A stretch of 64,000 bases of DNA, taken from assembly GCA_964589825.1 (NCBI GenBank), contig CAZPUS010000001.1:100486-164485 (forward strand), written 5' to 3'. Under the pieces are notes generated by a model, which worked only from the letters and a program-made list of their open reading frames with translations, searched no databases and was not told where the DNA came from. Made by a program: the position numbers and the translations under genes. Positions within the stretch are counted from its first letter, which is position 1. Every line of letters begins with the position of its first letter. This DNA is from an uncultured Fibrobacterota bacterium. Lineage in GTDB: Bacteria > Fibrobacterota > Chitinivibrionia > Chitinivibrionales > WJKA01. Shown here in pieces: positions 12,413-63,629 of the stretch.

Positions 12413-12631
12413 TACTGGCTCCGACAAATAATTATAAGCTGTATTTCGAACTCGTACGTAGTCTGAGGGCACAGGGGGAATGCCACGCTATATCTATAAC
12501 ATAAAATATGTTACTCAAAAATAAACCATGTGTACTACCTGCATAATTGATAGCGAATAGTGATGACAAAAAGAGAATACTTCCATGACTGTGGAGGTGC
12601 TGCTCAATTGGCAAGTTATGCGCTTTATATG

Positions 12632-29186: not shown

Positions 29187-29224
29187 GAAACTGTTCAACA
29201 ACAATCTACACAGGGAGGTTGACA

Positions 29225-46846: not shown

Positions 46847-46863
46847 TGTAGATCACCTTACGG

Positions 46864-47691: not shown

Positions 47692-47717
47692 TGGTAGAGT
47701 AACCGGGATACAGGTAA

Positions 47718-48617: not shown

Positions 48618-48670
48618 ACCTTCATAATGATTCCATAACCGTAATTAAAAAACCATTTACCTGCGTATGG

Positions 48671-50270: not shown

Positions 50271-50444
50271 CCTAACTTGAGCGTTTTGGGTGGCGCAATC
50301 TGCTGCAATCCGCTCTACTCTTATATGCCCGGGTATATGCCCGGAAATCATAAAGGCAACCAGCAAGATTGCTCCATGATTTTCAAGAACATAATAGCAG
50401 CACGTCTCACAGCAGCTTTCATCAAAACAATCGCTCAATTGTGG
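50271..50444 (+). mobile_element. MITE-like element, best-preserved copy with a 5-bp TSD
   Basis: Imperfect TIRs CCTAACTTGAGC / GCTCAATTGTGG, flanked by TTAAA at 50266-50270 and 50445-50449; internal TATATGCCCGG duplication. Confidence 0.75.
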
Positions 50445-50552: not shown

Positions 50553-51854
50553 TCAGAAGCTGTATGTAACGCCAAATCTTGTAAAAAAATGGTGCTGCGG
50601 TCCGCTCACAAAATTTGTAAGAGTAAAGCAATTATCTTCGGCAACAATACAGTCAATTTTTAGCCTGTTTTCCACATTTGCGCCTATGCCAATACCAAGG
50701 AAATCATTTTTTGTTCCGTCAGCTTCCACATTTTCGGTCCATGTACCATCCTCTCCCTGTTTTACATATTTAAAGGTTTTGGACACCCCTGCCCGGAATA
50801 AAAACCAATTCCAAATAATATTACGCTCCAGTCCAAAGCTAAGTCTGGTGCCCATGGTTTTTCTTATATCGTTTCCGATTATACCACCTTCCTCGTCATC
50901 ATATAATATTTCAACTCCTGCCCAGCCGAAGCCTCTGTCGATATTCAGATTTGCACCCATTCCAATGTTTATACCGAGCTTTGTGTAATCCGCTAGATCA
51001 AAATAGGTAACTCCAAGTCTCGGTACGAATTTACCGTTAAGAACAACCAGATCGGAAAAAAGCCGTACACTTAGATCCGCGATAAAATCTGAACTGTCTG
51101 AAAAGCTGGCAAGTGTTTTATCCTCTAGCGTGGTGCCGGTTCCGCTGGTAACGGTATCCGTATACATTGCGTCTACTGCAGTAATCCCCAGTGACGCTTC
51201 AAGCGAGGTGGATGTTGCCAAAGGGGTATTGACACCTACATTTCCGCGTATATATCTCAGCCGTGCACCACTTGGGCTACCAATACCGGCGTTGTTATTT
51301 ACAATATACGCACCGCCACCAATCATTGTACCGCTTGGAAACGCATAGCTTCCTAAAAGATCTATCTTTCCAACAGGTTCGGGCATATAAATGCTGTCGC
51401 TACTGCCGGCTATCTTTTCGAATTCTTTTTCACCTTTAATGAAATAATCGAGATATTTGTCATACCTGTTAAGTGCAACACCTACGGAAAACATTGGATA
51501 TTGCATCATCTTTTCATTTTTTTTGTCTTCTTTAGAGGGTTTTGCAAGAGAATATGAAAGGATGCCACCGCCGTATTGTCGAATCGGATCTCTATTTTTT
51601 CTTTTCAAAGCAGCCAAATCATTGTTGTTATTTGATGACTGGTTATTTGACTCCTCCTCCTGTTCGGTAAAAATACCCCCTGAGCCGATAATCATATTCG
51701 GATATAAATTTGCATTTGCGGGATTACGAAATACGCTATAATCGTCTCTGAAAAAATTATCGTGTTTTCCCAAACCAATGATTCTCGATTCTGTCGCGTA
51801 ACTCATGGTAGCGCACGATATCATTACTGCTGCGACTGCTATCTTTTTCATCAT
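50553..51854 (-). CDS. Outer-membrane beta-barrel protein
   Basis: Signal peptide, alternating strands, C-terminal FGVTYSF (BAM-type Phe). Confidence 0.85.
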   Translation of the reverse strand: MMKKIAVAAVMISCATMSYATESRIIGLGKHDNFFRDDYSVFRNPANANLYPNMIIGSGGIFTEQEEESNNQSSNNNNDLAALKRKNRDPIRQYGGGILSYSLAKPSKEDKKNEKMMQYPMFSVGVALNRYDKYLDYFIKGEKEFEKIAGSSDSIYMPEPVGKIDLLGSYAFPSGTMIGGGAYIVNNNAGIGSPSGARLRYIRGNVGVNTPLATSTSLEASLGITAVDAMYTDTVTSGTGTTLEDKTLASFSDSSDFIADLSVRLFSDLVVLNGKFVPRLGVTYFDLADYTKLGINIGMGANLNIDRGFGWAGVEILYDDEEGGIIGNDIRKTMGTRLSFGLERNIIWNWFLFRAGVSKTFKYVKQGEDGTWTENVEADGTKNDFLGIGIGANVENRLKIDCIVAEDNCFTLTNFVSGPQHHFFTRFGVTYSF

Positions 51855-51921
51855 AGCATCCCCCTCTTTAAATAAGGATAACTAAAAATTGAACAAATCG
51901 TATTTACAGCAAAAAAGATAA

Positions 51922-53223
51922 TTATTGCGAAAACACGAATGGGTATTTTACCGTTGTTACATCACCAGGCTTGTCGATTTTACCAAAGTTCCATCTTTTT
52001 ATAATGGTAACAATTTTGTCCTCAAGCTGGCTATCATTTATGGTACTACTGACCACTTTACAAAAGATAACTTTTCCATATTCGTCAATGGAAAACTTGC
52101 ATATAATTTTACCACCGAGCCCCGGCTTATCTCGAAGTCTTCTGTTATACGCATACCGGAGTGCCGGAAGGTTCTGCATTACGACACGCCGAATGCTCGC
52201 TTTGCTTCGTCCTCCGCTGATGGCGCCACCCTGGGAGAAATCGGGCCGTGCCATTTCGAGTTTTTTACCGCTTTTTTTCAACCCAAGGGAACTCTCTTCA
52301 CCTCCCATAAGACTTCCAACCAAATCGTCTATACCACCGCTTCCCCCACCAAATCCGCTGCCGTATCCGGCTCCATATCCAATACCGGCAGCACCCTTTC
52401 TACCCGATCCGCCGCTTCCTCCGGATTTGAGTCCTCCCATTCCTTTGAGAACCGCATCAATACCCGAGGCAAAACCGCCTTTTCCGAACACATCTGCGGA
52501 AGCGACTGTTTTTCCTTTAACTTTTCCTGATATTATTCCAAGTACACCTTTTCGTGTTACGCGAGCTCTCGGATCTCCTCCACCACCGGTTTTACCTCCT
52601 GCCCCTTTTTTCTTCGTCTCTTTCATTTTCTTCTTTTCAGTCTCTATTTTCTCCTCTTCCTTCTCTTTTTCCTTTTTAATAAGCTCTTCTGGGATGCTTA
52701 CTGCCACTTTTGCTTTTCGCTGTTCGGGCATCTTCTCGTAAAAATCTGCTTTAATCTTGGTATATTCGTAATTCGAAACCCAGAATCCACATATAAGGCC
52801 TAGAATTATGCATACGATTTCAAGATTACGCAGTCGTTTATTCTCTTCAACATGAAATATATCTTTTCGCTGCGTCACCTTATTTGTGTATTCCTGATCC
52901 GTCAAAACCCTTCCATCTTCTTCGTCGTCGTCATCATCTGCCCGGCCAGTAGGCGTTGTTGCGGCAGAAACTGACGATGCACCGGCCTCAACCTCTTCAC
53001 CCGCCAGTTCAACAGTGCCAACCTCTGCACCAACACCTTCAAATTTTTCCTTGAGCGCAGCGGCTTCTTCTTCAGTCGCCTCTTTTTTTATGCATATATC
53101 TTTCTGCATCAATGCAGACTCTACCACACCTTTCTCGGTCCCGGACCATTTGGCGACTTCTTCTGCAATCGTCCGGGCACGCTGCGGATCTTCACACTTT
53201 TTAATAATTACTTTTGACTTCAT
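51922..53223 (-). CDS. AgmX/PglI (GltG-like) TonB-C-terminal-domain protein
   Basis: Cytoplasmic N-domain, one TM, K/E helix, Gly-rich linker, SIRRVV...LRYAYNRRLR..PGLGGK...F.I...G.V C-domain. Confidence 0.85.
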   Translation of the reverse strand: MKSKVIIKKCEDPQRARTIAEEVAKWSGTEKGVVESALMQKDICIKKEATEEEAAALKEKFEGVGAEVGTVELAGEEVEAGASSVSAATTPTGRADDDDDEEDGRVLTDQEYTNKVTQRKDIFHVEENKRLRNLEIVCIILGLICGFWVSNYEYTKIKADFYEKMPEQRKAKVAVSIPEELIKKEKEKEEEKIETEKKKMKETKKKGAGGKTGGGGDPRARVTRKGVLGIISGKVKGKTVASADVFGKGGFASGIDAVLKGMGGLKSGGSGGSGRKGAAGIGYGAGYGSGFGGGSGGIDDLVGSLMGGEESSLGLKKSGKKLEMARPDFSQGGAISGGRSKASIRRVVMQNLPALRYAYNRRLRDKPGLGGKIICKFSIDEYGKVIFCKVVSSTINDSQLEDKIVTIIKRWNFGKIDKPGDVTTVKYPFVFSQ

Positions 53224-53246
53224 GAGTAATAACCCTTATTTTGGGA

Positions 53247-53750
53247 TTAACCTTCTCTTTGCATAACAGCGAACCGCATGTTATTATATCCGACTTCACC
53301 ACACGTTCGCATCACTTTATACATCACATCGAACTCCATGTTCTTATCTATCTGCACAATCACGTTCCCCTCTACCTCGTTTTTCGCCCCCATCTTTACA
53401 AGCTGCTGCTCTTCAGCATAATACTTTTTCAGGGTTTCGGCAAGTTTGGGGATTATCTGTTTCACTTTTTCCTCAGACATATTACGGACCTCTTCTGTGG
53501 GCACAACCGGATCATGCTCCACAAGCAGCATGTCGTTTGTCACCTCAATCTGCAAATTCACTTCCTTTGGCTTTTTATCGGAAATGGAATTAGGCAGGAC
53601 AAGGTCTTCCGCATTTGTCAAAATATTACCTTCAGCCGAAAACTGTTTGAGAAGAAATACAACCATAATCGTAAACATATCCATCATAGGGGTTATATTC
53701 AACCCCCCCGGTTTTTTGACCTTAGTTGCTCTACCTCTTTGAATAGCCAT
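53247..53750 (-). CDS. ExbD/TolR family (AglQ/S-like)
   Basis: LNITPMMDMFTIMVVFLL with the conserved Asp; IVQIDK...YKVMRTC..GY. Confidence 0.92.
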   Translation of the reverse strand: MAIQRGRATKVKKPGGLNITPMMDMFTIMVVFLLKQFSAEGNILTNAEDLVLPNSISDKKPKEVNLQIEVTNDMLLVEHDPVVPTEEVRNMSEEKVKQIIPKLAETLKKYYAEEQQLVKMGAKNEVEGNVIVQIDKNMEFDVMYKVMRTCGEVGYNNMRFAVMQREG

Positions 53751-53752
53751 TA

Positions 53753-54559
53753 TCAGCTCCTCATTTTTGCGATTTCAATTTGAGGATATCCTGCCATACG
53801 TGCAGCATCCATTACCTGCACGATCTTATCGTACAGCACCTCATTTTCCGCTGCCACGATAATCCTATCCTTATCATCGGCATCCTTGAATCTCTCTTTG
53901 ATTTTCATCAAACGGCTTTTAAGCAAATCGTATGCCGAAAGCTTCTGCAAACTGTATTTCGACGGGTCCTTAATTACGATTGCATGGCGCGGGTGAGTGA
54001 TTACATATACAGAATCCCCAACGGAGACCTCTTTTAAAGGAGTCCCGTTAAAATCAGTGATAAGGTGCCCTCTCTGAGAATAGAGAGCTTTCTGCACTTC
54101 TTTGGTTTTTGGATCGATTACATACAGCCAGATATCGTAGCGTTCGTGAATGGTAAGTTTTCTTCCGGTTTGAGGATGCGTCGGTGTCTCCTCAGGTTTT
54201 TTCGGATTGTACTTAACAGTCATCTCTTCGCCGCCTTCTTTGGCGATGTAATGATGATACTCCTGGTACCAGATACTTGGCAAAAATCCACCCTTAGCGC
54301 CCATTGTAATCGCAGAATCGGTGATAATTGCAGTCAGCATCAGCTTATTCGCTTTTTCCTCTTTTGGCCTTTCCTTAACCGTCTGCTGTGTCTGAGAACC
54401 TCTTCCTTCAGGCAGATTAATCTCGATAATCGCGACTTTCGCGAACTCCGCCTGGAGCAGAAGAACCGGCACCAGCACCGCCATAATACACATAAATGGT
54501 ATAATATCTACATCTTTGGTTCCCGAGGATTTCTTTCGTCCTCTTTGTGCCATATTCAA
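53753..54559 (-). CDS. Long ExbD/TolR-family protein with an internal insertion
   Basis: DIIPFMCIMAVLVPVLL TM; C-terminal IIVAAE.EVLYDKIVQVMDAAR.AGY; ~120-aa insert. Confidence 0.85.
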   Translation of the reverse strand: MNMAQRGRKKSSGTKDVDIIPFMCIMAVLVPVLLLQAEFAKVAIIEINLPEGRGSQTQQTVKERPKEEKANKLMLTAIITDSAITMGAKGGFLPSIWYQEYHHYIAKEGGEEMTVKYNPKKPEETPTHPQTGRKLTIHERYDIWLYVIDPKTKEVQKALYSQRGHLITDFNGTPLKEVSVGDSVYVITHPRHAIVIKDPSKYSLQKLSAYDLLKSRLMKIKERFKDADDKDRIIVAAENEVLYDKIVQVMDAARMAGYPQIEIAKMRS

Positions 54560-54595
54560 CCCCTTGTTATACTATACATACTTCGTAAATGAGGC

Positions 54596-55225
54596 TTATT
54601 CTTCTACTATATTCATAAGCTTGGTGGTCTTTTCATCCATTTCTTCCGAAATTTTATCTGCACGACCACTCAACACACCATGAAGAAGAATGGTAGGAAC
54701 CGCCACAATAAGACCGAAAAGTGTAGTTGTCATAGCCACAGAAATACCAGATGCAAGTGCCTGTGCACGCTGCGCTGCAGGAACGTTTGCGACTGACTCA
54801 AATGCAAGCATCAGACCATAAATAGTTCCGGTAAGTCCCAGAAGAGTGGCAAGGTTCGCAAGAGTATTCAAAAGTGGCAGCATACGATTAATGCGCGGCG
54901 TCTCGGTAAGAAAAACTTCGTCAACCGATTTCTGCACCTGTTTGCGTCCCTGTTTGCGATTTTCAAGAACACTCGCAACACCTTTGGCCAATGGAGTATC
55001 GAGAGATTTTGCATATTTGAGTGCCTTGTCGTATTCACCAGCTTTGAGGTATTTGCCGATCGATCCCATAAAAGCAGCGTTTTTGCTCCCGCATTTAAAA
55101 TATAGAAACCAGACTCTCTCGATAACCAGTGCAAGAATAGCAGCCAGCACCAGAAGAATAACCCACATAATCGAGCTACCTGCGGAAGTGAAACCATCAA
55201 CAATAAAATGAAATAGCTTAAGCAT
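54596..55225 (-). CDS. MotA/TolQ/ExbB (AglR-like) proton-channel subunit
   Basis: Three TMs; ATLLGLTGTIYGLM.AF and GISVAM.TT.FGL.VAVP. Confidence 0.93.
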   Translation of the reverse strand: MLKLFHFIVDGFTSAGSSIMWVILLVLAAILALVIERVWFLYFKCGSKNAAFMGSIGKYLKAGEYDKALKYAKSLDTPLAKGVASVLENRKQGRKQVQKSVDEVFLTETPRINRMLPLLNTLANLATLLGLTGTIYGLMLAFESVANVPAAQRAQALASGISVAMTTTLFGLIVAVPTILLHGVLSGRADKISEEMDEKTTKLMNIVEE

Positions 55226-55328
55226 AACTCCTCCTTAAAAGTGTTAAAAATGCATAGGTGCATTAAATAATAGATAAAATATTTTTTTCCACGTACAATT
55301 TCAATAATAAATCAGACCTTTCGATCTA

Positions 55329-58300
55329 TTACTTCCATAACATCCAGAACTGCCACCACGGCTTACCCGTTTGATCCTCCTTTTCTACAGGCTTTTTATC
55401 AATTGATATTATCCTTTCTTCAGCTGCCACAGAGTCTGCAATCGCTGCAGAGTCCTGTGCAGCGGCCTGCTGAGCAGAATCAATCTCCGGCGTCCATTTT
55501 TCAATATCAACCTCTACAAACTCGGATGTTGGAGCGATATTTTCCAATCGAGCCTGCGTGCTGTCAAGCCACTCGTTTTCGGCAATTCCCAGCTGCTTTG
55601 CCACCCGAACCGCTTCTTCATATTTGGGTATCGATTGCTGGACTGCCTGCAGATTTTTATCCTGCAACTGTTCCTGATAAATGCGCCTTTCTTCTTTGTT
55701 GAACTCCCGGGGAATAGGCGCGTTAGCGAATGTCTGCCCCACACGTTCAAAAAGCTTGGCCCGTTCGAATGCACATTTCATGAGCATATCTTTGGACTGC
55801 TTAACGATATCGCTCGTAAAATTATCCTCATGCGCTTTCTTAATATTCCATTGAAATTGTTCGATCGCTTTCTGATAGTATTTATCCAATTGCATGAGTA
55901 TTTTAATTTTTCCGGCCACTTTTTCTGATTCGTTGCCGAACAGTGTCTGGTTTTCCATCGCGTTCGCCATCTGTACGAAGCTTTCTCCTATTCGGTAGGT
56001 CGAACGCATCACCCATTCACGTATACCCGTCTTGATAGCTTTTGTGTACTTCTCACCGACTTTCGAAAGCGCCTCGACCTTTTCTTCGACCTTTTGTTCA
56101 ACCGCACGTTCACTGCGTCCGGTAAGCGCGATATCATTGTATCGCTTCTGCAAAATCTCACCGATACGAAAATATGCTTTCGCGATTATGGTTTTGTCAT
56201 AATCCGCCTTGCGAGTAAACTTTTCGTACAGTGTAACAGCGCCGAGATAATTCTCGCGTGCCGCTTCGAGATTATCGAGCTTGAAATACGCATCTCCCGC
56301 TTGTACCAGCGCATGTGTCTGTTTCGCTTTATTATCGAAATTTTCGGCAAATTTGATATACGCGGCTGCGGCGTTTTCGTACTCTTCCATTTTTTCGTAG
56401 CACAGGCCGATTGAGTACGCGCCTTCGGAGGCCCATTCGCTTTCGGGATATTTTCCGGCAAGAATCTTGTATACGTGTATCGCTTTATTATAGGCATCCG
56501 CTTTTTCGTATACAAGACCGGCATTATAAAGCGCCTGTGGTGTACGGGGATCCTCACCGTAGCGTTTATATACCATTTCGAATACCTCACCCGCTTTCCG
56601 AGGCTTTTCAGCTTTCTGAAAGGACTCCGCTGCATGGGAAAGAGAGGGTATGGCATAATCGGCTGTGGGTATGGTATCTGCTGCCTCGATATATACCTGT
56701 GCAGCTTTTTCGTACGCCTCAATCTTTTTGTAATTTTCGGCAGCTCGAATAAATGAGCTTTCGAGCAATTTTACGGTCTTCATCCGTTTTTTCGAAAAAT
56801 TGACCGACATCTTCGCAAAGGTTTCTGCCGCCTTCTGCCAACTTTCCGCTTCTTCATACGCCGCACCCGCATCAAACCACGCATTGATGGCCACTTTTGT
56901 CTGCGGATATTTTGAATAAATAGTCTTAAACACATCCGCTGCACCGATATAATTGCGGTTTTTCTTCATTTCATCCGCTTTTGCATACATTGCACTTGCA
57001 GCCAACTCCGCGATATTCTGATAATCGGACTGACCTTTTTCCATAACCGCCATAAGACTGTCGTATCGCTGTATAGCGAGTTCGTAATTACCGAGTTTCA
57101 CGAATGCCTTGGCAAGCATCTTGTACGCATCGATAAATACATCAGCTTTTTTATAATGATCAACGATGGCCTGAAAATTATTTATAGCTTCTTCATAGCG
57201 CTGCGCAAGGTAATTGATGTTTCCCGCAGTATAAACAACCTTGGATACGTGCTCGCTTTCAGGAAACTTTTCTCTATATTTTTCGATAAGACTGAGCATT
57301 TTCTGCGTAACCGGCAACTCATACGCTTCTTTGTCATCAAGTTTTTTATCCGCTTTTATCTTTTTTCGCTGCGTATTAAGCGCCACTATTGCATTATACC
57401 CCGCATCTTTCTGAGGTATTACATTTGGCCCTTTTTTCTGTTTTTTCTGCTTTTTCTTCTCGTACTCGACCGCATCCTGGTAGGCAAAACTGTCTACCTT
57501 TGCCTTGTATTCAGGAAAGGTCGATATTTCCGCCATTGCAACTTCCCAGAAATAATCGGCAGCCTTCTCGTATTGTTTCAGCGTATGATATATTTCAGCA
57601 CTATAATACGTAAACTCGTAATTCTGCCATTTCTCCTCAGGAAACCGCTCCATGTAATCGTGATATCGCTCAAGTGCTTTTTTATAAAGGGAACGCTTTT
57701 TTTCCTTCTGCGCCATTGAATGATAGTAAACTCCCATATTGTACAATGCGCTTTTGACGTGTTCCCTGGATCTATCGATCACCGCTTTTTCATTACTGTT
57801 TTTCTCGTACCATTCGGTTCCGGATTTGTAATTATCAACCAGTATTTTGCGTTGCTCGTTCGCTTTTTCCGGTTTTTTCTGAATCATATAACATTCTATA
57901 AGCTTCTGTCGCGCAATCGGCGCTTCCCGGTAATACGGGTATTTTTCCAAGGCCGTATGAAACGCCTCTATCGCCTTGTCATACTGTCCGTGCTTGCGGT
58001 TTTTGAAACCGATGGTATACATCACATAGGCTTCGTAGGGCCGGTGCCCTACCTTTTTAAAAAACTTAACCGCACGTTCCGGACCGTTTGGAATATCGGA
58101 AAATGAAATCGCGAGAAATTCCTTTGCCTCGCCAATAAACTCCTTCTTGATGTATTCCCCTGAATTGCATTTTTCAATATAAGTGAAGAAAAGATCTATA
58201 GCTTTGTCGAACGCTGCCTGATTATAATACATTTCCGCCTTACGATAATGCGTCATCTCCCATACTTCTATGTTAACATCTTTTTCTTCAACTTTTTCCA

Positions 58301-58958
58301 AATGCTTAATAGCCTTGGGATAATCTCGCTGGTTATAATAATAATCAGCAAGATGGAAATGAGCATACGAGGCTCTCGGACTCTGCGGCCATTCTTTAAC
58401 GAGCTCTTCATACGCTTCGGCCGCCCGGTCGAACTGTCCGCTTAAAAGACTTATATGTCCTATCTGGTAAGCAGCTTCATCGCCTTTTTCATAATCGGGA
58501 TATTCTTCGAGCACACGGTTATACATCTCAAACGCTTTTGAATAATCAGGTTTTGGATTTTGAGGCCGTGGTCCCTGCTGAGTCCGCTCCCACTCATCCA
58601 TAGCCTTGCTGAACTCTTTTTGGGCTTCTATAAAGTCACTTTTTGCCTTTTTGTAATACAACTTGCCCAATGTTATCAATACCCGTGCACAGCGAGTGTT
58701 TTTTTTCTGATCGCAGCCCTGAGCAATATTTTCGTATTTTGCAATAACCTCGCTGTAATCCTGATCAGCCTGCACCTCCTGCTCAAGCTTCTGCTGCATA
58801 TCCTGGTTAAGCTCCTGTTTTTTGCGTTTGAGCGCTTCCAGCTTTCGCTTCAGTTTTTCTTCCTTGGATAATCCGTACGATGTTGACGCTGCACCGAATA
58901 CCAGTACAACGCACATGAATAATCTTGCGTATCCGGCTAACTTTTTATTGAGTCTCAT
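55329..58958 (-). CDS. Large exported TPR protein (AgmU/GltD-like)
   Basis: 1209 aa, signal peptide, many TPRs; directly upstream of the exbB/exbD/exbD/gltG-like genes. Confidence 0.85.
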   Translation of the reverse strand: MRLNKKLAGYARLFMCVVLVFGAASTSYGLSKEEKLKRKLEALKRKKQELNQDMQQKLEQEVQADQDYSEVIAKYENIAQGCDQKKNTRCARVLITLGKLYYKKAKSDFIEAQKEFSKAMDEWERTQQGPRPQNPKPDYSKAFEMYNRVLEEYPDYEKGDEAAYQIGHISLLSGQFDRAAEAYEELVKEWPQSPRASYAHFHLADYYYNQRDYPKAIKHLEKVEEKDVNIEVWEMTHYRKAEMYYNQAAFDKAIDLFFTYIEKCNSGEYIKKEFIGEAKEFLAISFSDIPNGPERAVKFFKKVGHRPYEAYVMYTIGFKNRKHGQYDKAIEAFHTALEKYPYYREAPIARQKLIECYMIQKKPEKANEQRKILVDNYKSGTEWYEKNSNEKAVIDRSREHVKSALYNMGVYYHSMAQKEKKRSLYKKALERYHDYMERFPEEKWQNYEFTYYSAEIYHTLKQYEKAADYFWEVAMAEISTFPEYKAKVDSFAYQDAVEYEKKKQKKQKKGPNVIPQKDAGYNAIVALNTQRKKIKADKKLDDKEAYELPVTQKMLSLIEKYREKFPESEHVSKVVYTAGNINYLAQRYEEAINNFQAIVDHYKKADVFIDAYKMLAKAFVKLGNYELAIQRYDSLMAVMEKGQSDYQNIAELAASAMYAKADEMKKNRNYIGAADVFKTIYSKYPQTKVAINAWFDAGAAYEEAESWQKAAETFAKMSVNFSKKRMKTVKLLESSFIRAAENYKKIEAYEKAAQVYIEAADTIPTADYAIPSLSHAAESFQKAEKPRKAGEVFEMVYKRYGEDPRTPQALYNAGLVYEKADAYNKAIHVYKILAGKYPESEWASEGAYSIGLCYEKMEEYENAAAAYIKFAENFDNKAKQTHALVQAGDAYFKLDNLEAARENYLGAVTLYEKFTRKADYDKTIIAKAYFRIGEILQKRYNDIALTGRSERAVEQKVEEKVEALSKVGEKYTKAIKTGIREWVMRSTYRIGESFVQMANAMENQTLFGNESEKVAGKIKILMQLDKYYQKAIEQFQWNIKKAHEDNFTSDIVKQSKDMLMKCAFERAKLFERVGQTFANAPIPREFNKEERRIYQEQLQDKNLQAVQQSIPKYEEAVRVAKQLGIAENEWLDSTQARLENIAPTSEFVEVDIEKWTPEIDSAQQAAAQDSAAIADSVAAEERIISIDKKPVEKEDQTGKPWWQFWMLWK

Positions 58959-59210
58959 TCTCTACATTCTCCACAATAGCATTAACACATGAAAAACTAA
59001 ATCTATTTCAATTAATTTATACGCTTAAGTTCCGTTTATATAAAAATAATACTGTCCCCGAACAAATTACAAATAATATCCATAATTCAGCTGTATCACA
59101 TCACCTCAGCCATTCCTTCATCGCCCTCCTGCACATCTCTTTTTGAAAGCTCTTGTATTGCCTGGCATCCGCTTGGTTATACTTCGTGTATTCGTGCAAT
59201 ATTATTTATA

Positions 59211-59260
59211 CCTGAATTGAGCGGTTTTGTCCGCGGAATCTGCTGCAATCCGCACTAATC
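59211..59260 (+). mobile_element. MITE-like repeat, left-half copy
   Basis: 40/50 identity to 50271-50320; starts CCTGAATTGAGC after TTATA. Confidence 0.7.
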
Positions 59261-59388
59261 CCGACACAGCGGAAGTTCCCCTCCCTTTCGCCTTGTCGAT
59301 TTAAGGAGACTGCCAGTGGTCATGCCGTATTGTCACTCTTCCTCCTTTTTCTTGCGCAACAAACGCAACCACTTGTTTCGCATCTCCT

Positions 59389-59691
59389 TCACGCACCGGA
59401 CACTAACTCTTTCCTGGCTGGGTAAAACGTGTAAAACGAGAACAAAGCGGTCACTTTGATGAAAGTGCAGGAAACTGTACTTTTTTTTGTGCTCTGGCCA
59501 ATAGCGGGACAATTGTATGGATGTGTATATTTCCCTCCGGAAACGCAACGGCTGGGTGGACGACAACAACGTTCTCGAATACAATCGTTCAGTTCAAACA
59601 AAAAAGGTATCTTTCTCGGGCGACAGATATTTTTAGCACTATTTTTACCGGGACGTTTGGTATGCAGGGCACATCGACATGGCTGACTCAT
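59389..59691 (-). CDS. Possible 100-aa Cys-rich basic protein
   Basis: AGGAG RBS 9 nt before ATG 59691; 9 Cys; no recognisable family. Confidence 0.3.
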   Translation of the reverse strand: MSQPCRCALHTKRPGKNSAKNICRPRKIPFLFELNDCIRERCCRPPSRCVSGGKYTHPYNCPAIGQSTKKSTVSCTFIKVTALFSFYTFYPARKELVSGA

Positions 59692-59733
59692 ACTATTGTT
59701 CTCCTGGTGTTTCTCCCGGTATCGCACACAGCC

Positions 59734-62094
59734 TTACTCTTCAGATTCATTCAGTTGTTGCTCGAGCTGTTTTATCTTTTCATCAAGTTTCTCTTCCTCT
59801 TCTTTCTGTTTTTCGATTACTTCCCTTTCTTTCTGCGTTGCCATCATCTCTTCGGCTCTGGCAAGTGCGTATTCCGCATCGTCAAGAATCTTCTCTTTTC
59901 GTCTTAGAAACTTCGTATGTGATTTGGCCTTGAGGGTGTACTCAAAAAACTGTTCATCCTTCTGCGCAAAATCCTCATACTCCTGCTCCAGTTGCTCACG
60001 CTCCTTAAGTGTCTGTGCCACCGGTCTGGTCATCGCATTCTTCTTTATATTTTCGGCTACCGGTTCAAACTCATCGACCGTTTCCTCGTACATGTTTTTG
60101 CGCCGCTGCAGGTCCGAGTCGGTGATATAATCATCATTGCAGAGCTCGACACATTTATCAAGCATCTCTTTTGCCGTAGTATAGCGCTGGAGCAAAATGT
60201 TTGCATACCCTTTCAGAAGATATACCTCGGGAAGAAAAGGCGACTCCGGATGATTGTTAATCAACGGAGTGAGTACTTTGAGACATAACTTCGGCTTCTG
60301 TACCTTTATCCATGACCACGCCATACCGATAAGCGCTTCTTCACGATACGGGGAAGATGCACTGACCTTCTGGTATGCTTCTACCGCCTGTCGCAATTTA
60401 ACCTGTTCGAAGTAGAGGTGACCAAGTTTTGTGTTGGCTGCATCAATAAGAAGTAGGTGATCCTGCTTCATGCTTGTATCCTGCACAATCGACTGCAGAT
60501 TCTGCATGGCCGCCTTAGGTCTTTCCTCTTCTATATTGATAATCGAAAGCGTATATTGTGCGTAAAGATATGCCGGGTCACCCGGTTCGAGCCGGTTAAA
60601 AAGCCGCCTGGCCGATTCGTAATTCTTCTGTGTGAAATAGATCTCACCGGCAAGGTAATCCGCATCGGTACGGATATCGCTATCAGGATACAAATTGACT
60701 ATAAACGCATGCCGCTTCAATGCACTCTCATAATCACCTTCGCTGTAATCGAGTTGCATAAGCCCGTAGAGGTATTTAGGTCGCATCTGAGATGCCGAAT
60801 AATTGTCAAGCCCCTCGCTGTACATATCGTGTGCAATCGATTTCATGCGAAGAAACCGATAACAATTACCCATGAAATACATGACCTTATCATTAAGATG
60901 GAAATTCGGAAAGAGCGTCATCACTTTGCCGAAAGCAAACGAAGCTTCCCAATACTTGCCTTCAACGTACAATTTCATGGCCTCGTTGTAGGCATTCTGC
61001 GGCTCTGCAATCAGCTGGTTATAAAGCCGCCGTGATTCACGCTGCTCGCGGGTGGGTCCGACGTCACCCGAAATCTTGGCCATAAGGGTAAAACCTCTGG
61101 GATCAACCCCCATATCGGTCAACAAACCACTGAACGCATATCCGACATCAAAATCGGCAACGATATAGTTTATTGCCTCGGGCAGCGGAAACATGAGATT
61201 TGTTTTTACTCCCACGTAGGAGATATTATTATTGGTCCATCCGCCCTTGAGCCATATCTGGGGAATAAATTCATATTTCACGTGTGCCCCGTAACGAGGG
61301 ATAACAGGGGCAGACTCATTTTCAAGACTGTCAAGCAGATTCACCCAGATATCTCCGAAGATATTATCTATTACCACCTCGACATCCGCAACCAGTATGT
61401 CGTTGAATGCGCTGTAACGAATTCCCGTACGCATCCGTGGAGTAACGGGGTAGCTTGCTATAGACTCCCATTCGATCTGAGCCGGGATGACATCCTGCAG
61501 ATTGACACTAAAACCGAGGTCCCCATACAGATAGTGATCAATCGGATTGAAATAAACGCCAAGATCGATACCTGGCACTTTACTGACTTTCCACTCTTTG
61601 TACTGGTTCTGAATCCAAAATTTAAGATTTGTACCGGCCATAAGCCAGGGAAGAATTTTAAGCCCATAATTCGCAGTGATCCAGTAATCTCCGAACGGAA
61701 TCATTGAAACGTCATCATCGTTGAATTCTGTCCGTTCCTTGATCTGCGCGCCCCCCGCGATTGCGGTGATACCGAATGTATGGTTCATTCGTACAGGAGC
61801 ATAAAACCCGAGTTGCTTGTACCCCCACGGCGCCAGTAAACCAGCCCAGCTGTACATACCGACATCGAAATGGTACTGATTAACACCATGCAGAAGCGCA
61901 GGGTTGACAAGGGCAGACGTATAGTCCGAAAGTTTCTGGTAACAGTCCGACTGCAGATATGGTGCCGGATATCCACCACTTCCCTCGGCCTCAAGCGCCA
62001 TGGTTCTTTGCAAACTTCCCGCAAGGAGCACAACAGTTAATACGATCCCTGAAATGCTTGATAAATTGCTGGCTTTTCTTTTCATATTTTTCAC
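59734..62094 (-). CDS. PorV-like beta-barrel fused to TPR repeats
   Basis: Signal peptide; SALVNPALL..., barrel strands (GIDLGVYF, LGFSVNLQD); BamD-like TPR half (AYNEAMKLY...AFGKV...FP). Confidence 0.75.
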   Translation of the reverse strand: MKNMKRKASNLSSISGIVLTVVLLAGSLQRTMALEAEGSGGYPAPYLQSDCYQKLSDYTSALVNPALLHGVNQYHFDVGMYSWAGLLAPWGYKQLGFYAPVRMNHTFGITAIAGGAQIKERTEFNDDDVSMIPFGDYWITANYGLKILPWLMAGTNLKFWIQNQYKEWKVSKVPGIDLGVYFNPIDHYLYGDLGFSVNLQDVIPAQIEWESIASYPVTPRMRTGIRYSAFNDILVADVEVVIDNIFGDIWVNLLDSLENESAPVIPRYGAHVKYEFIPQIWLKGGWTNNNISYVGVKTNLMFPLPEAINYIVADFDVGYAFSGLLTDMGVDPRGFTLMAKISGDVGPTREQRESRRLYNQLIAEPQNAYNEAMKLYVEGKYWEASFAFGKVMTLFPNFHLNDKVMYFMGNCYRFLRMKSIAHDMYSEGLDNYSASQMRPKYLYGLMQLDYSEGDYESALKRHAFIVNLYPDSDIRTDADYLAGEIYFTQKNYESARRLFNRLEPGDPAYLYAQYTLSIINIEEERPKAAMQNLQSIVQDTSMKQDHLLLIDAANTKLGHLYFEQVKLRQAVEAYQKVSASSPYREEALIGMAWSWIKVQKPKLCLKVLTPLINNHPESPFLPEVYLLKGYANILLQRYTTAKEMLDKCVELCNDDYITDSDLQRRKNMYEETVDEFEPVAENIKKNAMTRPVAQTLKEREQLEQEYEDFAQKDEQFFEYTLKAKSHTKFLRRKEKILDDAEYALARAEEMMATQKEREVIEKQKEEEEKLDEKIKQLEQQLNESEE

Positions 62095-62126
62095 GATTAT
62101 GATCCTTATTTATATCCAACAATACA

Positions 62127-63629
62127 TTAATTGATTGGCACGATCTCTACACGTCTGTTCTTCGCGCGACCCTGCGCAGTCTCATTGGTAGCAATAGGCT
62201 TGTCTTCGCCATAACCCTTGGCAATCAATCGATCGGCGGAGATACCGCGCTCTACGAAATACTCCTTCACCGCTTTCGCTCTTTTATAGGAAAGCACCCT
62301 GTTATAATCGGCTCCACCCCGATTGTCGGTATGACCGGCGATTTCGAATTTCTTGTTTTCAAACGCTTCAAGGCTGTTAAATACTTTGTCAAGTACCGGA
62401 TAGGACTCTTTAAGGATCTGGGCACTTCCTGTTTTAAAATGAACGCCCCGCAATGTAAGCTTCTTTGTGATCTTTTTGGGTTCTTCATCCGGACAGCCGT
62501 CCTTATCCTTGAATCCATTAACCGTTTCAGGGTTATTAGGACATTTATCGCGATCATCAACGATGCCATCCTTGTCATTGTCGTTGTCCGGACAGCCGTC
62601 CTGATCCTGGAACCCGTCCTTATCTTCCGCTTCATCCGGACAGGCGTCATCTTTGTCGTAAATGCCATCATTATCGTTGTCATAATCGGGACATCCATCC
62701 TCATCCTGAAACCCATCCATATCTTCCGCAACCTTGGGACATTGATCGATATCGTCGAGGATGCCGTCTCCATCCGCATCCTTGCTCAGCTGCATTACTA
62801 CTTCAGCCGGCATCAGCCCGATATCCGAATTGTTCTGTCCCTGCTCCTTGCATGGCGATGTCTGCTTTACATAATAATTGAATTTCGGAAATCCGGGAGA
62901 TATGAATTTCGGATCCTTGCTGATATTCGTTTTATCAACCCGTGCGATAGGATTGAAAGGAGCGCGGTTATTATAGATATTGTTATAAACGACACGTGTT
63001 TTCTTGGCACCGGGCCCCACAAAAACCGCATACTGTTTATTGCCCATAATAATATTATTATGTATCGCCACCGCAGTATGGTGCGCCGCAAAGATTCCGC
63101 AATAGCCGTTCTCGACGATCACGTTATGATCGATCGCGGTACGGGTGCCACGCACAGATTCGAGGAATATACCTGTCCATTTGTTACGATAAATAATGTT
63201 GTTCTCTATTTGAGGAAGCGACATAATTGCATGTATGCCGGTTCCTTTATTGTCGAGTATTATGTTGCGCTTGATAACAGGCCGGGTATTTTTACACAGT
63301 ATCCCCTTTTCACCGTTCGTTATCGTAAATTTCATGATGGTTGCATTTTCTGCTCCAACTATGACCGGTCCTTCTCCGCCTCCGTTGATTATTGTTTTGG
63401 TCTTGTCCTGTCCCTCGAGTATTACATCGGGTTTTAATGAGATGTTCTCATGATAGGTACCGTTTTTAACATAAACGGTATCTCCTGCGGATGCCTGTTG
63501 AATCGCCTTGAAAATCGTGGGGAAATCATGAGGGACAAGAATTTTTCGCGCCTGCTGCGCCTGGGAAGTCACGAGCACGTTGCACAACACAAAAAGGGAC
63601 ATCATTCTGAACCATTTTCTTATTTCCAT
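62127..63629 (-). CDS. Right-handed beta-helix + TSP type-3 repeats + OmpA peptidoglycan-binding domain
   Basis: VPHDFPTI..AI..A..GDTV.V.NGTY.E beta-helix start; DxDxDG...CP repeats; GHTD...N..LS..RA..V..Y and GYGE..P...N.T..GRA.NRRVE. ATG 63629 follows an RBS. Confidence 0.9.
   Translation of the reverse strand: MEIRKWFRMMSLFVLCNVLVTSQAQQARKILVPHDFPTIFKAIQQASAGDTVYVKNGTYHENISLKPDVILEGQDKTKTIINGGGEGPVIVGAENATIMKFTITNGEKGILCKNTRPVIKRNIILDNKGTGIHAIMSLPQIENNIIYRNKWTGIFLESVRGTRTAIDHNVIVENGYCGIFAAHHTAVAIHNNIIMGNKQYAVFVGPGAKKTRVVYNNIYNNRAPFNPIARVDKTNISKDPKFISPGFPKFNYYVKQTSPCKEQGQNNSDIGLMPAEVVMQLSKDADGDGILDDIDQCPKVAEDMDGFQDEDGCPDYDNDNDGIYDKDDACPDEAEDKDGFQDQDGCPDNDNDKDGIVDDRDKCPNNPETVNGFKDKDGCPDEEPKKITKKLTLRGVHFKTGSAQILKESYPVLDKVFNSLEAFENKKFEIAGHTDNRGGADYNRVLSYKRAKAVKEYFVERGISADRLIAKGYGEDKPIATNETAQGRAKNRRVEIVPIN
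62487..62780 (-). repeat. Three tandem ~33-aa TSP3-type Ca-binding repeats
   Basis: D.D.DGI.D..D.CP...ED.DGFQD.DGCPD x3 (~99-bp period). Confidence 0.88.

What the first reader, a model, noticed from the sequence alone, without database searches (positions are those of the whole stretch)
50553..63629. Contiguous Agl-Glt-like proton-driven trans-envelope machine in a flagellated non-myxobacterium
Seen in one orientation: beta-helix/OmpA, PorV-TPR, a 1209-aa TPR, ExbB-like, two ExbD-like, an AgmX/PglI-type TonB-C protein and an OM barrel. Established: AglRQS + GltG + GltD form the core of the Myxococcus gliding and Nfs spore-coat machines, and a core homolog set is known in Fibrobacter with unresolved function. 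Inference: with its own OM and PG-anchored modules, this is a distinct variant. It could drive surface translocation, polysaccharide handling or energised export/import, rather than ordinary TonB uptake (no TonB-dependent receptor nearby).
Basis: partly seen in the sequence, partly recalled or inferred. Interest (0 to 1): 0.72.

Follow-up and report, generated by a model that had tools for sequence, protein, structure and literature searches.

The report
Fibrobacterota Glt-core-like trans-envelope motor cluster
This is the local copy of an eight-gene, proton-driven envelope-spanning machine found throughout the cellulose- and chitin-degrading phylum Fibrobacterota; it is related to the core of the Myxococcus gliding motor, was already listed for Fibrobacter succinogenes, and its function is still untested.

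Summary
Eight collinear minus-strand genes (50553-63629) encode a beta-helix/TSP3/OmpA protein, a barrel-plus-TPR protein, a 1209-aa TPR protein, one ExbB/TolQ-like protein, two ExbD-like proteins, a TonB-like protein with an AgmX/PglI C-terminal domain, and an outer-membrane barrel.

The Glt relationship is real for three proteins:
- The 1209-aa TPR family aligns end to end with a genuine GltD.
- The TonB-like protein aligns with GltG from the membrane helix to the C-terminus, and its domain models as a TonB CTD.
- 16 of 22 orthologues of the barrel-TPR protein weakly hit the GltC model.

It is not a distinct variant. The organism is a Chitinivibrionia-type Fibrobacterota. The cluster is the orthologue of F. 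succinogenes FSU_2396-2404 (Fisuc_1892-1897), listed in 2011 as a Glt "core complex". Its proteins are cellulose-induced, and its barrel (FSU_2404) is a PopA-superfamily protein.

The gene order holds in more than 70 species-level genomes.

Details I did not find in the papers read:
- ExbD1 never has the membrane Asp.
- The PopA-like barrel is strictly linked to the motor.
- A bL12-like cytoplasmic domain sits on the TonB-like protein.
- A cis-motif is shared with the adjacent ABC sugar importer.

Function remains inferred. This is a new member of a known kind.

The parts
62127..63629 (-). Secreted beta-helix (NosD/CASH-like) + thrombospondin-3 Ca-binding repeats + OmpA-type peptidoglycan-binding domain. 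Orthologue of F. succinogenes FSU_2396.
   Evidence: Pfam Beta_helix 66.6 bits, NosD 45.5, OmpA 85.5. Orthologues at 43-64% identity lie in the same position in about 30 loci.
59734..62094 (-). 786-aa protein: signal peptide, about 330-aa predicted outer-membrane beta-barrel-like domain with an NPA motif, then TPR and a long coiled coil. The TPR part is GltC-like. Counterpart of FSU_2397/Fisuc_1892.
   Evidence: TPR families. PorV_fam is weak, E 5.5e-5. 16 of 22 orthologues hit NF033756 gliding_GltC, best E 6.5e-11, on TPR residues about 445-680. PMC3169522 Table S3 pairs Fisuc_1892 with MXAN_2541. The N-domain has no PDB or Pfam match beyond weak OMP_b-brl hits.
58959..59733 (.). 775-nt non-coding spacer. 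Orthologous loci have about 35 nt here. It carries one copy of a 36-nt repeated cis-motif at 59217-59252.
   Evidence: No Rfam hit.
55329..58958 (-). 1209-aa periplasmic TPR scaffold, GltD-like. Counterpart of FSU_2398/Fisuc_1893.
   Evidence: The family profile aligns collinearly with the GltD of a genuine Glt cluster (P0041 in L004): hmm 38-725, 772-999 and 1060-1140 against residues 76-805, 815-1047 and 1032-1111, 249 bits. A generic 1004-aa TPR protein gives 78 bits in scattered pieces. P0041 was also hit at E 2e-32 in the 5.8-billion-protein search. L004 was validated as a Glt cluster.
54596..55225 (-). ExbB/TolQ/AglR-like proton-channel subunit (209 aa); presumed pentameric stator ring.
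   Evidence: PF01618 88.4 bits. TolQ is the best NCBIfam hit but far below cut-off, 66.9 against 221. Identity is 55-91% across Chitinivibrionia-type relatives and 44-48% to Fibrobacterales.
53753..54559 (-). ExbD1: 268-aa ExbD/TolR-like protein with an insertion of roughly 110 aa in the periplasmic domain. It has Cys where the essential membrane Asp should be.
   Evidence: PF02472 in two stretches. All 49 orthologues have N, C, S or A at the Asp position. Fisuc_1895 was not recognised as an AglQ homologue in PMC3169522 Table S3.
53247..53750 (-). ExbD2: 167-aa ExbD/TolR/AglS-like protein that keeps the membrane Asp (TPMMDMF).
   Evidence: PF02472 54.3 bits. The Asp is present in all orthologues. 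Fisuc_1896 is paired with AglS in PMC3169522 Table S3.
51922..53223 (-). GltG-like transducer: about 75-aa cytoplasmic bL12-CTD-like domain, acidic run, one membrane helix (about 131-160), Lys/Glu-rich segment, Gly-rich linker, and an AgmX/PglI-type TonB-CTD-like domain.
   Evidence: NF033768 84.4 bits against a cut-off of 40. The GltG model aligns 164-433 with 384-647 of 650. The family profile aligns with L004 GltG, hmm 140-429 against 356-644, 122 bits. AF2 model pLDDT 81; the top 17 Foldseek hits are all TonB-family CTDs (TonB, FusB, HasB) except one TolA domain III at rank 16. The N-domain matches bL12 at E 0.0011. Topology.
50553..51854 (-). 433-aa outer-membrane barrel with a signal peptide and C-terminal Phe. 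PopA-family-like; orthologue of FSU_2404.
   Evidence: NF053618 PopA 48.6 bits, below its cut-off of 150. 28 of 29 orthologues hit it. PMC12228718 assigns FSU_2404 to the PopA superfamily. In 74 of 77 barrel-anchored loci the GltG-like gene lies directly upstream.
50277..50312 (+). Second copy of the 36-nt cis-motif, 155 nt upstream of the ABC substrate-binding-protein gene.
   Evidence: 3 copies in the window, 0 expected by chance.
45740..50122 (-). Adjacent CUT1-type ABC sugar importer (substrate-binding protein, two permeases, MalK-like ATPase). Possibly co-regulated; not shown to be part of the machine.
   Evidence: Pfam. An SBP orthologue lies downstream of the barrel in at least 18 loci of the first scan and 25 of the barrel-anchored scan.

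Best explanation
The cluster encodes a Tol/TonB-style, proton-motive-force-driven machine that spans the envelope. It is of the 'Agl-Glt core complex' type and is orthologous to F. succinogenes FSU_2396-2404.

Inferred mechanism:
1. An ExbB/TolQ-like ring surrounds a heterodimeric axle. ExbD2 carries the protonatable Asp. ExbD1 lacks it and has an extra periplasmic insertion.
2. This stator energises the single-pass GltG-like protein.
3. The Lys/Glu-rich and Gly-rich periplasmic arm of that protein carries a TonB-CTD-like domain. The domain docks on the 1209-aa GltD-like TPR scaffold and, by strand addition, on outer-membrane partners.
4. Those partners are the barrel-TPR (GltC-like) protein and the PopA-like barrel.
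5. The beta-helix/OmpA protein ties the assembly to peptidoglycan.

The most likely output is mechanical work on an abundant outer-membrane complex at the polymer-contact surface. That could mean handling or gated uptake of cellulose or chitin chains or oligosaccharides, which would then pass to ABC importers such as the one next door.

Shown: gene content, the homologies, the TonB-CTD-like fold, phylum-wide linkage, and the Asp asymmetry. Inferred: stoichiometry, contacts, direction of force, and physiological role.
For: - Domain content.
- Collinear homology to GltD and GltG.
- GltC-model hits in 16 of 22 orthologues.
- TonB-CTD-like fold.
- ExbD1 without Asp and ExbD2 with Asp in every orthologue.
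- Same gene order across Fibrobacterota plus one Raymondbacteria MAG.
- PMC3169522 Table S3 lists Fisuc_1892/1893/1894/1896/1897 as GltC/GltD/AglR/AglS/GltG homologues and reports that these genes fall in the Agl/Glt clades.
- PMC6851124 reports FSU_2396-2398 and 2400-2403 up 1.2-1.7-fold on cellulose, and FSU_2396/2397 in a vesicle complex with cellulases and fibro-slime protein. FSU_2404 is up 1.27-fold.
- PMC12228718 places FSU_2404 in the PopA superfamily.
- An adjacent ABC sugar importer shares a 36-nt upstream motif.
- A GH9+CBM3 cellulase lies in the same window.
- Precedent: the Glt paralogue Nfs moves a polysaccharide, powered by AglRQS (PMC3858216).
Against: - No experiment ties any of these genes to a function.
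- The cellulose induction in F. succinogenes is small.
- Abundant outer-membrane proteins will appear in vesicles and cellulose pull-downs anyway.
- The cluster is conserved regardless of substrate (cellulose or chitin specialists). In Fibrobacterales it sits next to mreBCD-PBP2-rodA rather than a sugar importer. Both points fit a housekeeping envelope role as well.
- GltE is absent.
- The PorV and PopA assignments are below the curated cut-offs.
- The barrel could not be modelled (pLDDT 29.5).
- I could not obtain AglR references to place the motor phylogenetically.
- All protein contacts are inferred from Myxococcus AlphaFold models (PMC11761067), not from this system.
Confidence: 0.55

Rival explanations
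1. It is the phylum's functional equivalent of Tol-Pal. In this reading it is a housekeeping system that uses proton-motive force to tether and organise the outer membrane and peptidoglycan during growth and division, and it has no specific role in polysaccharide use.
For: - TolQ and TolR are the best-scoring named motor models.
- The TPR proteins are built of YbgF/CpoB-type repeats (TIGR02795 149 bits).
- An OmpA/Pal-type peptidoglycan-binding protein is part of the cluster.
- The motor is very strongly conserved and present phylum-wide.
- In Fibrobacterales the cluster is followed directly by mreB-mreC-mreD-PBP2-rodA.
- No 'TolB' string occurs in the F. succinogenes proteome tables searched; one of those files was truncated when stored.
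Against: - All Tol models score far below their equivalog cut-offs: TolQ 66.9 against 221, TolR 38 against 127, Pal 78 against 125.
- There is no TolB-like gene in the cluster.
- The C-terminal domain is closer in fold to TonB CTDs than to TolA domain III.
- F. succinogenes has a separate putative Pal next to a TPR lipoprotein (FSU_0604/0603).
- The GltD and GltG homology is specific.
Confidence: 0.25
2. It is a conventional TonB-ExbB-ExbD energiser that serves TonB-dependent (or plugged FadL/PopA-like) outer-membrane transporters importing cellodextrins or chito-oligosaccharides. Raut et al. proposed this for FSU_2400-2403.
For: - ExbB/ExbD/TonB-like domain set.
- TonB-CTD fold.
- Induction on cellulose and the authors' import model (PMC6851124).
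- A plugged PopA-like barrel is encoded immediately downstream, and an ABC sugar importer follows it.
Against: - No TonB-dependent receptor lies in the cluster or the window.
- ExbB, ExbD and TonB equivalog models are far below cut-off, and Pfam TonB_C is below its gathering score.
- The linker is Lys/Glu- and Gly-rich, not Pro-rich.
- Two giant TPR proteins and an OmpA protein have no counterpart in Ton systems.
- PopA itself behaved as a non-transporting porin-like protein in liposome assays (PMC12228718).
Confidence: 0.2
3. It is a surface-translocation (gliding) motor like Myxococcus Agl-Glt, moving adhesins or enzymes along the cell surface.
For: Homology to GltD, GltG and GltC plus an AglRQS-like motor. 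Fibrobacter cells adhere to cellulose and its degradation is thought to depend on cell-surface proteins (PMC4619616 abstract; PMC6851124).
Against: - None of the Myxococcus-specific modules is present: GltA/B/H/K, CglB, GltF, GltI, GltJ, or the FHA domains of GltG.
- Luciano et al. argue that the core alone is unlikely to drive motility.
- The organism has flagellin.
- F. succinogenes has been described as non-motile (PMC4704652).
Confidence: 0.07

Closest known systems
F. succinogenes S85 cluster FSU_2396-FSU_2404 (Fisuc_1892-1897), the Fibrobacteres 'core complex' of Luciano et al. 2011
   Same: Same genes in the same order with similar sizes: OmpA protein, about 746-aa TPR, about 1292-aa TPR, 212-aa ExbB, long ExbD, 164-aa ExbD, TonB-like, PopA-like barrel. 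Fibrobacterales loci L047 and L212 are collinear with the window.
   Different: - Protein identity is only 24-48%.
- The window's GltG-like protein carries an extra cytoplasmic region of roughly 125 aa (a ~75-aa bL12-like domain plus linker and acidic run). It is 433 aa against 308-319 aa.
- The downstream neighbour is an ABC sugar importer here, but mreBCD-PBP2-rodA in Fibrobacterales.
- A 775-nt spacer splits the window's cluster.
Myxococcus xanthus Agl-Glt gliding machine and its Nfs spore-coat paralogue
   Same: - GltD-like TPR scaffold of the same length class with collinear homology.
- GltG-type transducer with an AgmX/PglI TonB-CTD-like domain.
- GltC-like TPR.
- One TolQ-like plus two TolR-like motor genes.
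   Different: - No GltE, GltF, GltH, GltI, GltJ, GltA/B/K or CglB.
- No FHA domains.
- One of the two ExbD-like proteins lacks the membrane Asp, whereas AglQ and AglS both keep it (PMC9389320).
- The GltC-like TPR is fused to a barrel-like domain.
- The two Cys residues typical of the AgmX/PglI domain are replaced.
- All genes lie in one cluster.
Tol-Pal system (TolQ-TolR-TolA-TolB-Pal-CpoB)
   Same: TolQR-like stator, a TolA/TonB-like spanning protein with a charged helical segment, an OmpA/Pal-type peptidoglycan binder, and YbgF/CpoB-type TPR repeats.
   Different: No TolB. Two different ExbD-like subunits. TPR proteins five to ten times longer. Two outer-membrane barrels. All Tol equivalog models are below cut-off.
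TonB-ExbB-ExbD uptake systems
   Same: ExbB/ExbD-family motor and a C-terminal domain with the TonB CTD fold.
   Different: No TonB-dependent receptor. No Pro-rich linker. Sequence models are below cut-off. Extra TPR, OmpA and barrel components are present.
PopA (Bd0427) porin-like lipid-trapping superfamily, Parr et al. 2025
   Same: The terminal barrel is the orthologue of FSU_2404, which that paper models as a hexameric PopA-superfamily member. 28 of 29 orthologues hit the NCBIfam PopA model.
   Different: The sequence match is weak (48.6 bits against a cut-off of 150, mostly in the N-terminal 65 residues). A profile search found no PDB match. In full-text term searches, that paper contains none of 'TonB', 'Tol', 'gliding' or 'gene neighbourhood', so it does not discuss the motor linkage seen here.

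Membership tests
Agl-Glt 'core complex' (Luciano 2011 Group B genes in one cluster) | GltD-type periplasmic TPR protein of about 1000-1300 aa | tested here: met
   The family profile aligns collinearly over nearly the whole length of GltD from a validated Glt cluster, 249 bits. The same GltD was hit at E 2e-32 in the database search.
Agl-Glt 'core complex' (Luciano 2011 Group B genes in one cluster) | GltG-type single-pass protein with an AgmX/PglI TonB-like C-terminal domain | tested here: met
   NF033768 84.4 bits, above its cut-off of 40. The GltG model aligns from the membrane helix to the C-terminus. Profile against L004 GltG gives 122 bits. The fold is TonB CTD. The full GltG equivalog cut-off (650) is not reached, because the FHA domains are absent.
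Agl-Glt 'core complex' (Luciano 2011 Group B genes in one cluster) | GltC-type TPR protein | tested here: inconclusive
   16 of 22 orthologues hit NF033756, best E 6.5e-11 at 41.7 bits against a cut-off of 450. The window's own protein does not reach E 0.01. The assignment rests on PMC3169522 Table S3 for Fisuc_1892.
Agl-Glt 'core complex' (Luciano 2011 Group B genes in one cluster) | GltE-type TPR lipoprotein | tested here: not met
   None of the eight proteins hits NF033758. The TPR profile of the barrel-TPR protein does not hit GltE of L004. PMC3169522 also lists none for F. succinogenes.
Agl-Glt 'core complex' (Luciano 2011 Group B genes in one cluster) | One TolQ-like (AglR) and two TolR-like (AglQ, AglS) genes adjacent, both TolR-likes with the membrane Asp | tested here: inconclusive
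   The gene set and adjacency are met. ExbD1 lacks the Asp in all 49 orthologues, while ExbD2 keeps it.
Agl-Glt 'core complex' (Luciano 2011 Group B genes in one cluster) | Motor proteins fall in the Agl clade rather than the TolQR or ExbBD clades | not tested
   No AglR reference could be fetched: 80 GltG-anchored loci had no adjacent ExbB-like gene. PMC3169522 reports this placement for the F. succinogenes orthologues.
Myxococcus Agl-Glt gliding machine (full) | Group A modules (GltA/B/H/K barrels, CglB adhesin, GltF, GltI, GltJ) and FHA domains on GltG | tested here: not met
   No NCBIfam hits to the CglE or CglF models. The GltJ model matches only the shared C-terminal domain. There are no FHA domains. 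The same models do hit the control cluster L004. GltA, GltB and GltK were not tested individually.
Tol-Pal | TolQ, TolR and Pal equivalogs plus a TolB beta-propeller | tested here: not met
   TolQ 66.9 against 221, TolR 38 against 127, Pal 78.4 against 125 bits. There is no TolB-like gene in the cluster. The YbgF model passes (149 against 90.1), but only through six repeated stretches in a 1209-aa protein.
TonB-ExbB-ExbD uptake system | ExbB, ExbD and TonB equivalogs, a Pro-rich linker, and a TonB-dependent receptor partner | tested here: not met
   ExbB 41 against 206. ExbD at most 31 against a cut-off of at least 123. Pfam TonB_C 22.5 against 24.6. TIGR01352 26.1 against 27.1. The linker is Lys/Glu/Gly-rich. 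No receptor lies in the window. Only the CTD fold is met.
PopA porin-like superfamily | 16-strand plugged barrel with the PopA-like loop-8 and outer-wall architecture | tested here: inconclusive
   NF053618 48.6 bits, below its cut-off of 150. 28 of 29 orthologues hit it. The single-sequence model was unusable (pLDDT 29.5). A profile found no PDB sequence match. Membership rests on PMC12228718 for the orthologue FSU_2404.
PorV/PorQ family (T9SS shuttle barrels) | Match to the PorV/PorQ family model over the barrel | tested here: not met
   NF033709 22.9 bits against a cut-off of 90, in 4 of 22 orthologues. The N-domain profile finds no PorV or FadL chain in the PDB. Pfam gives only weak OMP_b-brl hits in 2 of 22.

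The most novel reading that the evidence does not exclude
This conserved Glt/Nfs-like motor could be the missing energy-driven device behind contact-dependent deconstruction of crystalline cellulose and chitin in Fibrobacterota. In that reading, a stator with one active and one 'dead' ExbD subunit pulls, through the GltG-like arm and the TPR scaffold, on a PopA-like and barrel-TPR outer-membrane complex. That complex would hold surface enzymes or thread glycan chains inward to the neighbouring ABC importer.
Probability: 0.15. Interest if true: 0.85.

Novelty: new member of a known kind. Interest (0 to 1): 0.42.

Why it matters
Three literatures touch this gene set, and I found no sign in the papers read that they have been joined:
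- the Myxococcus 'core complex' phylogenomics;
- Fibrobacter cellulose-adhesion and vesicle proteomics;
- the PopA porin-like superfamily.

The window shows that the whole eight-gene unit, including the PopA-like barrel, is one strictly linked module across Fibrobacterota. That gives a concrete, testable candidate for how these bacteria couple membrane energy to their cell-surface polysaccharide machinery. It also offers a simple, stand-alone relative in which to study what the ancestral Glt core does. The instance in this window adds no new kind of system by itself.

Tried and rejected
- A protein-database search with only the 114-aa C-terminal domain collected just 11 candidates, 10 of them significant and the named ones Chitinivibrionales. 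It did not reach Myxococcus.
- Context look-ups of distant TPR hits: P0029 was not informative. P0041 led to the Glt control cluster L004.
The single-sequence barrel model was unusable (pLDDT 29.5), so no fold search of the barrel was possible.
- Profile searches against PDB sequences gave nothing for the barrel, only TPR hits for the barrel-TPR protein, and only designed beta-barrels for its N-domain.
- hhalign of the barrel family against the N-domain of the barrel-TPR family was not significant (probability 1.9%). I do not claim the two barrels are related.
- An hhalign batch timed out and was replaced by hmmsearch.
The second returned 80 Myxococcota-type loci without any adjacent motor. 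The ExbB phylogeny was therefore dropped.
- One row of alignment A3 (L048:1462-3849) turned out to be a PcrA helicase and was left out of later work.
- The repeated 36-nt motif has no Rfam match and no RNA-folding signal, so I read it as a DNA-level element.
- The large representative-protein search was not used, because it carries no taxonomy or context.

Full report
**What is there**

Eight genes lie head to tail on the minus strand between 50553 and 63629. Domain scans give the following.

| # | Coordinates | Size | Content |
|---|---|---|---|
| i | 62127-63629 | 500 aa | Secreted right-handed beta-helix (NosD-like), thrombospondin-3 repeats, C-terminal OmpA-type peptidoglycan-binding domain |
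| ii | 59734-62094 | 786 aa | Signal peptide, about 330 residues without a firm family, TPR (about 430-660), long coiled coil |
| iii | 55329-58958 | 1209 aa | Secreted protein made of YbgF-type TPR units |
| iv | 54596-55225 | 209 aa | MotA/TolQ/ExbB protein |
| v | 53753-54559 | 268 aa | ExbD-like protein |
| vi | 53247-53750 | 167 aa | ExbD-like protein |
| vii | 51922-53223 | 433 aa | Single-pass protein; C-terminus passes the AgmX/PglI model (NF033768, 84.4 bits against a cut-off of 40) |
| viii | 50553-51854 | 433 aa | Secreted protein ending in Phe; weak match to the PopA porin-like family |

Gaps between the genes are 2-103 nt, with one exception. A 775-nt spacer separates (ii) from (iii). 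Simple hydropathy agrees with the expected locations.

**Whose genome**

The closest relatives of every protein are MAGs labelled Chitinivibrionales or Chitinispirillaceae (Fibrobacterota).
- The best database hit to the ExbB-like protein is 91% identical and comes from an unnamed metagenome contig. All other hits are 72% or lower.
- The window also carries a flagellin gene (29219-30067) and a GH9+CBM3 cellulase (12632-15073).
- This fits the flagellated, polymer-degrading Chitinivibrionia/Fibromonadaceae described in PMC4704652.

**The cluster is conserved across the phylum**

Two independent scans of species-representative genomes support this.
- Scan anchored on the ExbB-like gene. It returned 52 loci. 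tblastn showed all eight genes in the same order in about 35 of them.
- Scan anchored on the barrel gene. It found 201 relatives, nearly all labelled Fibrobacterota, plus one Candidatus Raymondbacteria MAG and a few MAGs with other taxonomic labels.
- Of the 77 new loci kept from that second scan, 74 have the GltG-like gene directly before the barrel. Every locus with enough upstream DNA shows TPR-TPR-ExbB-ExbD1-ExbD2-GltG-like-barrel.
- F. succinogenes MAG L212 and Fibrobacteres MAG L047 are collinear with the window.
- Some Fibrobacterales loci (L046, L048) show only the last five genes in the stretch fetched.
- KSB1 (L052) and an unclassified MAG (L053) have a barrel-less version.

**It is the already listed Fibrobacter cluster**

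Three separate literatures describe parts of the F. succinogenes orthologue.
- *Luciano et al. 2011* (PMC3169522, Table S3) list the following for F. succinogenes S85:

| S85 gene | Description | Listed Myxococcus homologue |
|---|---|---|
| Fisuc_1892 | 746-aa TPR | MXAN_2541 (GltC) |
| Fisuc_1893 | 1292-aa TPR | GltD |
| Fisuc_1894 | 212-aa ExbB | AglR |
| Fisuc_1896 | 164-aa ExbD | AglS |
| Fisuc_1897 | 308-aa TonB | GltG |

  These are the same order and sizes as here. The authors call this a 'core complex' of unknown function and consider it unlikely to drive motility alone.
- *Raut et al. 2019* (PMC6851124) use the other locus-tag series. FSU_2396 (OmpA), FSU_2397/2398 (TPR), FSU_2400 (ExbB), FSU_2401/2402 (ExbD), FSU_2403 (TonB) and FSU_2404 are all 1.2-1.7-fold more abundant on cellulose. 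FSU_2396/2397 were found in a vesicle complex with cellulases and a fibro-slime protein. The authors propose TonB-dependent cellodextrin import.
- *Parr et al. 2025* (PMC12228718) place FSU_2404 in the PopA porin-like superfamily, modelled as a hexamer. In full-text term searches, that paper contains none of 'TonB', 'Tol' or 'gliding'.

**Tests of Glt homology**

A distant hit of the 1209-aa protein (P0041) lies in a deltaproteobacterial cluster. NCBIfam identifies that cluster as genuine Glt: GltE 112 bits, CglF, full-length GltG 336 bits, CglE. I used it as the reference.
- *GltD.* A profile of the window's TPR family aligns with that GltD collinearly over almost its whole length, 249 bits. 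A generic 1004-aa Flavobacterium TPR protein gives 78 bits in scattered pieces, and GltE gives nothing.
- *GltG.* The GltG-like family aligns with that GltG from the membrane helix to the end, 122 bits.
- *GltC.* 16 of 22 orthologues of the barrel-TPR protein hit the GltC model on their TPR part. The scores are far below the cut-off, and the window's own copy does not reach E 0.01.
- *GltE.* No homologue exists in the cluster.
- *Fold of the C-terminal domain.* The AlphaFold model of the C-terminal 114 residues has pLDDT 81. The top 17 PDB fold matches are TonB-family C-terminal domains (TonB, FusB, HasB) apart from one TolA domain III at rank 16 (probability 0.92), and the other TolA matches rank lower.

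It is not met on the homology side. I could not run the motor phylogeny, because none of the 80 GltG-anchored loci I fetched had a motor next to it.

**Differences from the relatives**

1. ExbD1 never has the membrane Asp. The position is N, C, S or A in 49 orthologues, and Cys here. ExbD1 also carries an insertion of roughly 110 aa. ExbD2 always has the Asp. Myxococcus AglQ and AglS are both described as keeping it (PMC9389320).
2. The GltC-like TPR is fused to an N-terminal barrel-like domain. The PorV label for that domain is not supported by the family cut-off or by PDB and Pfam profile searches.
3. The barrel-like N-domain and the PopA-like barrel are not detectably related to each other.
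4. The GltG-like protein has no FHA domains. In Chitinivibrionia-type genomes it has a conserved ~75-aa N-terminal cytoplasmic domain (part of a roughly 125-aa N-terminal extension absent in Fibrobacterales) that weakly resembles the C-terminal domain of ribosomal protein bL12 (E 0.0011, with several bL12 chains among the best hits). That domain is absent from the 315-aa Fibrobacterales forms.
5. The two Cys residues of the AgmX/PglI domain seen in Myxococcota-type and KSB1 proteins are replaced in Fibrobacterota.

**Surroundings**

- *Downstream in the window.* A complete CUT1-type ABC sugar importer lies on the same strand at 45740-50122. An SBP orthologue follows the barrel in many Chitinivibrionia-type loci. 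In some, a 1070-aa HEAT/cNMP-binding protein lies between them.
- *Downstream in Fibrobacterales.* The neighbours are mreB-mreC-mreD-PBP2-rodA instead.
- *Repeated motif.* A 36-nt motif occurs three times in the window, where none is expected by chance. All copies have the same orientation. Each lies 123-259 nt upstream of a minus-strand gene start: the 1209-aa TPR gene, the SBP gene, and an unrelated gene at 8532-9671.
- The motif has no Rfam match and no RNA-folding signal. I read it as a shared DNA regulatory site. This is inference.

**How it most likely works (inferred)**

By analogy with TolQR, ExbBD and AglRQS, I propose the following path.
1. The ExbB-like protein forms a ring around an ExbD1-ExbD2 pair.
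2. Proton flow through the single Asp of ExbD2 drives the complex and energises the GltG-like protein.
3. The periplasmic arm and TonB-CTD-like head of the GltG-like protein engage the GltD-like scaffold and the outer-membrane barrels.
4. The OmpA protein fixes the assembly to peptidoglycan.

Several observations make polysaccharide handling or uptake at the cell surface my preferred output:
- the cellulose-linked proteomics in F. succinogenes;
- the carbohydrate-type beta-helix domain;
- the neighbouring, possibly co-regulated sugar importer;
- the precedent of Nfs moving a glycan (PMC3858216).

The evidence for that output is indirect. Phylum-wide conservation irrespective of substrate, and the mreBCD neighbourhood in Fibrobacterales, fit a Tol-Pal-like housekeeping role nearly as well.

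**Verdict**

The Agl-Glt-like reading is supported at the level of the 'core complex'. The claim of a distinct variant is not supported: this is a new member of a cluster already listed for Fibrobacter. Its value lies in joining three separate descriptions of the same genes and in a few conserved details that suggest experiments.

Noticed in passing
window 9794-9829, 50277-50312, 59217-59252 (+ strand): A 36-nt motif (TTGAGCNNTTTNNNNNGCGNAANCTGCTNCAATCCG) occurs three times where none is expected by chance. Each copy lies 123-259 nt upstream of a minus-strand gene start: the gene at 8532-9671, the ABC substrate-binding-protein gene, and the 1209-aa TPR gene. It has no Rfam hit and no RNA-folding signal, so it is probably a shared operator or promoter element.
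   Followed up: partly
window 58959-59733: A 775-nt non-coding spacer separates the barrel-TPR gene from the GltD-like gene, where orthologous loci have about 35 nt. It has no similarity to the loci held at the time of the search (L001-L059) and probably splits the cluster into two transcription units in this genome.
   Followed up: partly
window 52999-53223 (first 75 codons of the GltG-like gene): A conserved cytoplasmic N-terminal domain weakly resembles the C-terminal domain of ribosomal protein bL12 (profile against PDB, E 0.0011). It is present in Chitinivibrionia-type orthologues and absent in Fibrobacterales. It could be a regulatory input site.
   Followed up: partly
L047 14920-20385; L048 15023-20501: In Fibrobacterales the cluster is followed, after one small unassigned ORF, by mreB, mreC, mreD, PBP2 and rodA on the same strand (Pfam run on L047; in L048 inferred from matching ORF sizes only).
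   Followed up: partly
window 12632-15073 (-): A GH9 endoglucanase with a CBM3 cellulose-binding module, so this organism is probably cellulolytic.
   Followed up: no
window 29219-30067 (+): A flagellin gene (Flagellin_N + Flagellin_C), followed at 31571-32425 by a MinD/ParA-type ATPase.
   Followed up: no
window 8532-9671 (-): A 379-aa protein with no Pfam family but with repeated D-x-N/D-G-D/N-G calcium-binding-like motifs. Its upstream region carries the third copy of the 36-nt motif.
   Followed up: no
L052 (KSB1) 1853-13204; L053 2-9203: Barrel-less TPR-TPR-ExbB-ExbD(Asn)-ExbD(Asp)-GltG-like clusters outside Fibrobacterota. Their AgmX/PglI domains keep the two Cys residues seen in Myxococcota-type proteins, so they look intermediate between the Fibrobacterota and Myxococcota forms.
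   Followed up: partly
L009 14948-18160 and equivalent positions in other loci: In many Chitinivibrionia-type loci the SBP orthologue lies about 3.4 kb downstream of the barrel rather than directly after it; in L009 that gap holds a 1070-aa HEAT-repeat plus cyclic-nucleotide-binding protein (only L009 was examined).
   Followed up: no
L007 (Chitinispirillum alkaliphilum) 11946-13225 and upstream: In the cultured species the GltG-like gene is called as two ORFs (248 and 174 aa). No beta-helix/OmpA gene precedes the cluster; an oppositely oriented PD40/Omp85 fusion gene lies upstream instead.
   Followed up: no
L048 1462-9990: In this F. succinogenes-labelled MAG the stretch upstream of the motor holds a PcrA-type helicase and about 6 kb with no match to the TPR or OmpA families. 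Another F. succinogenes MAG (L212) has the TPR genes in place.
   Followed up: partly
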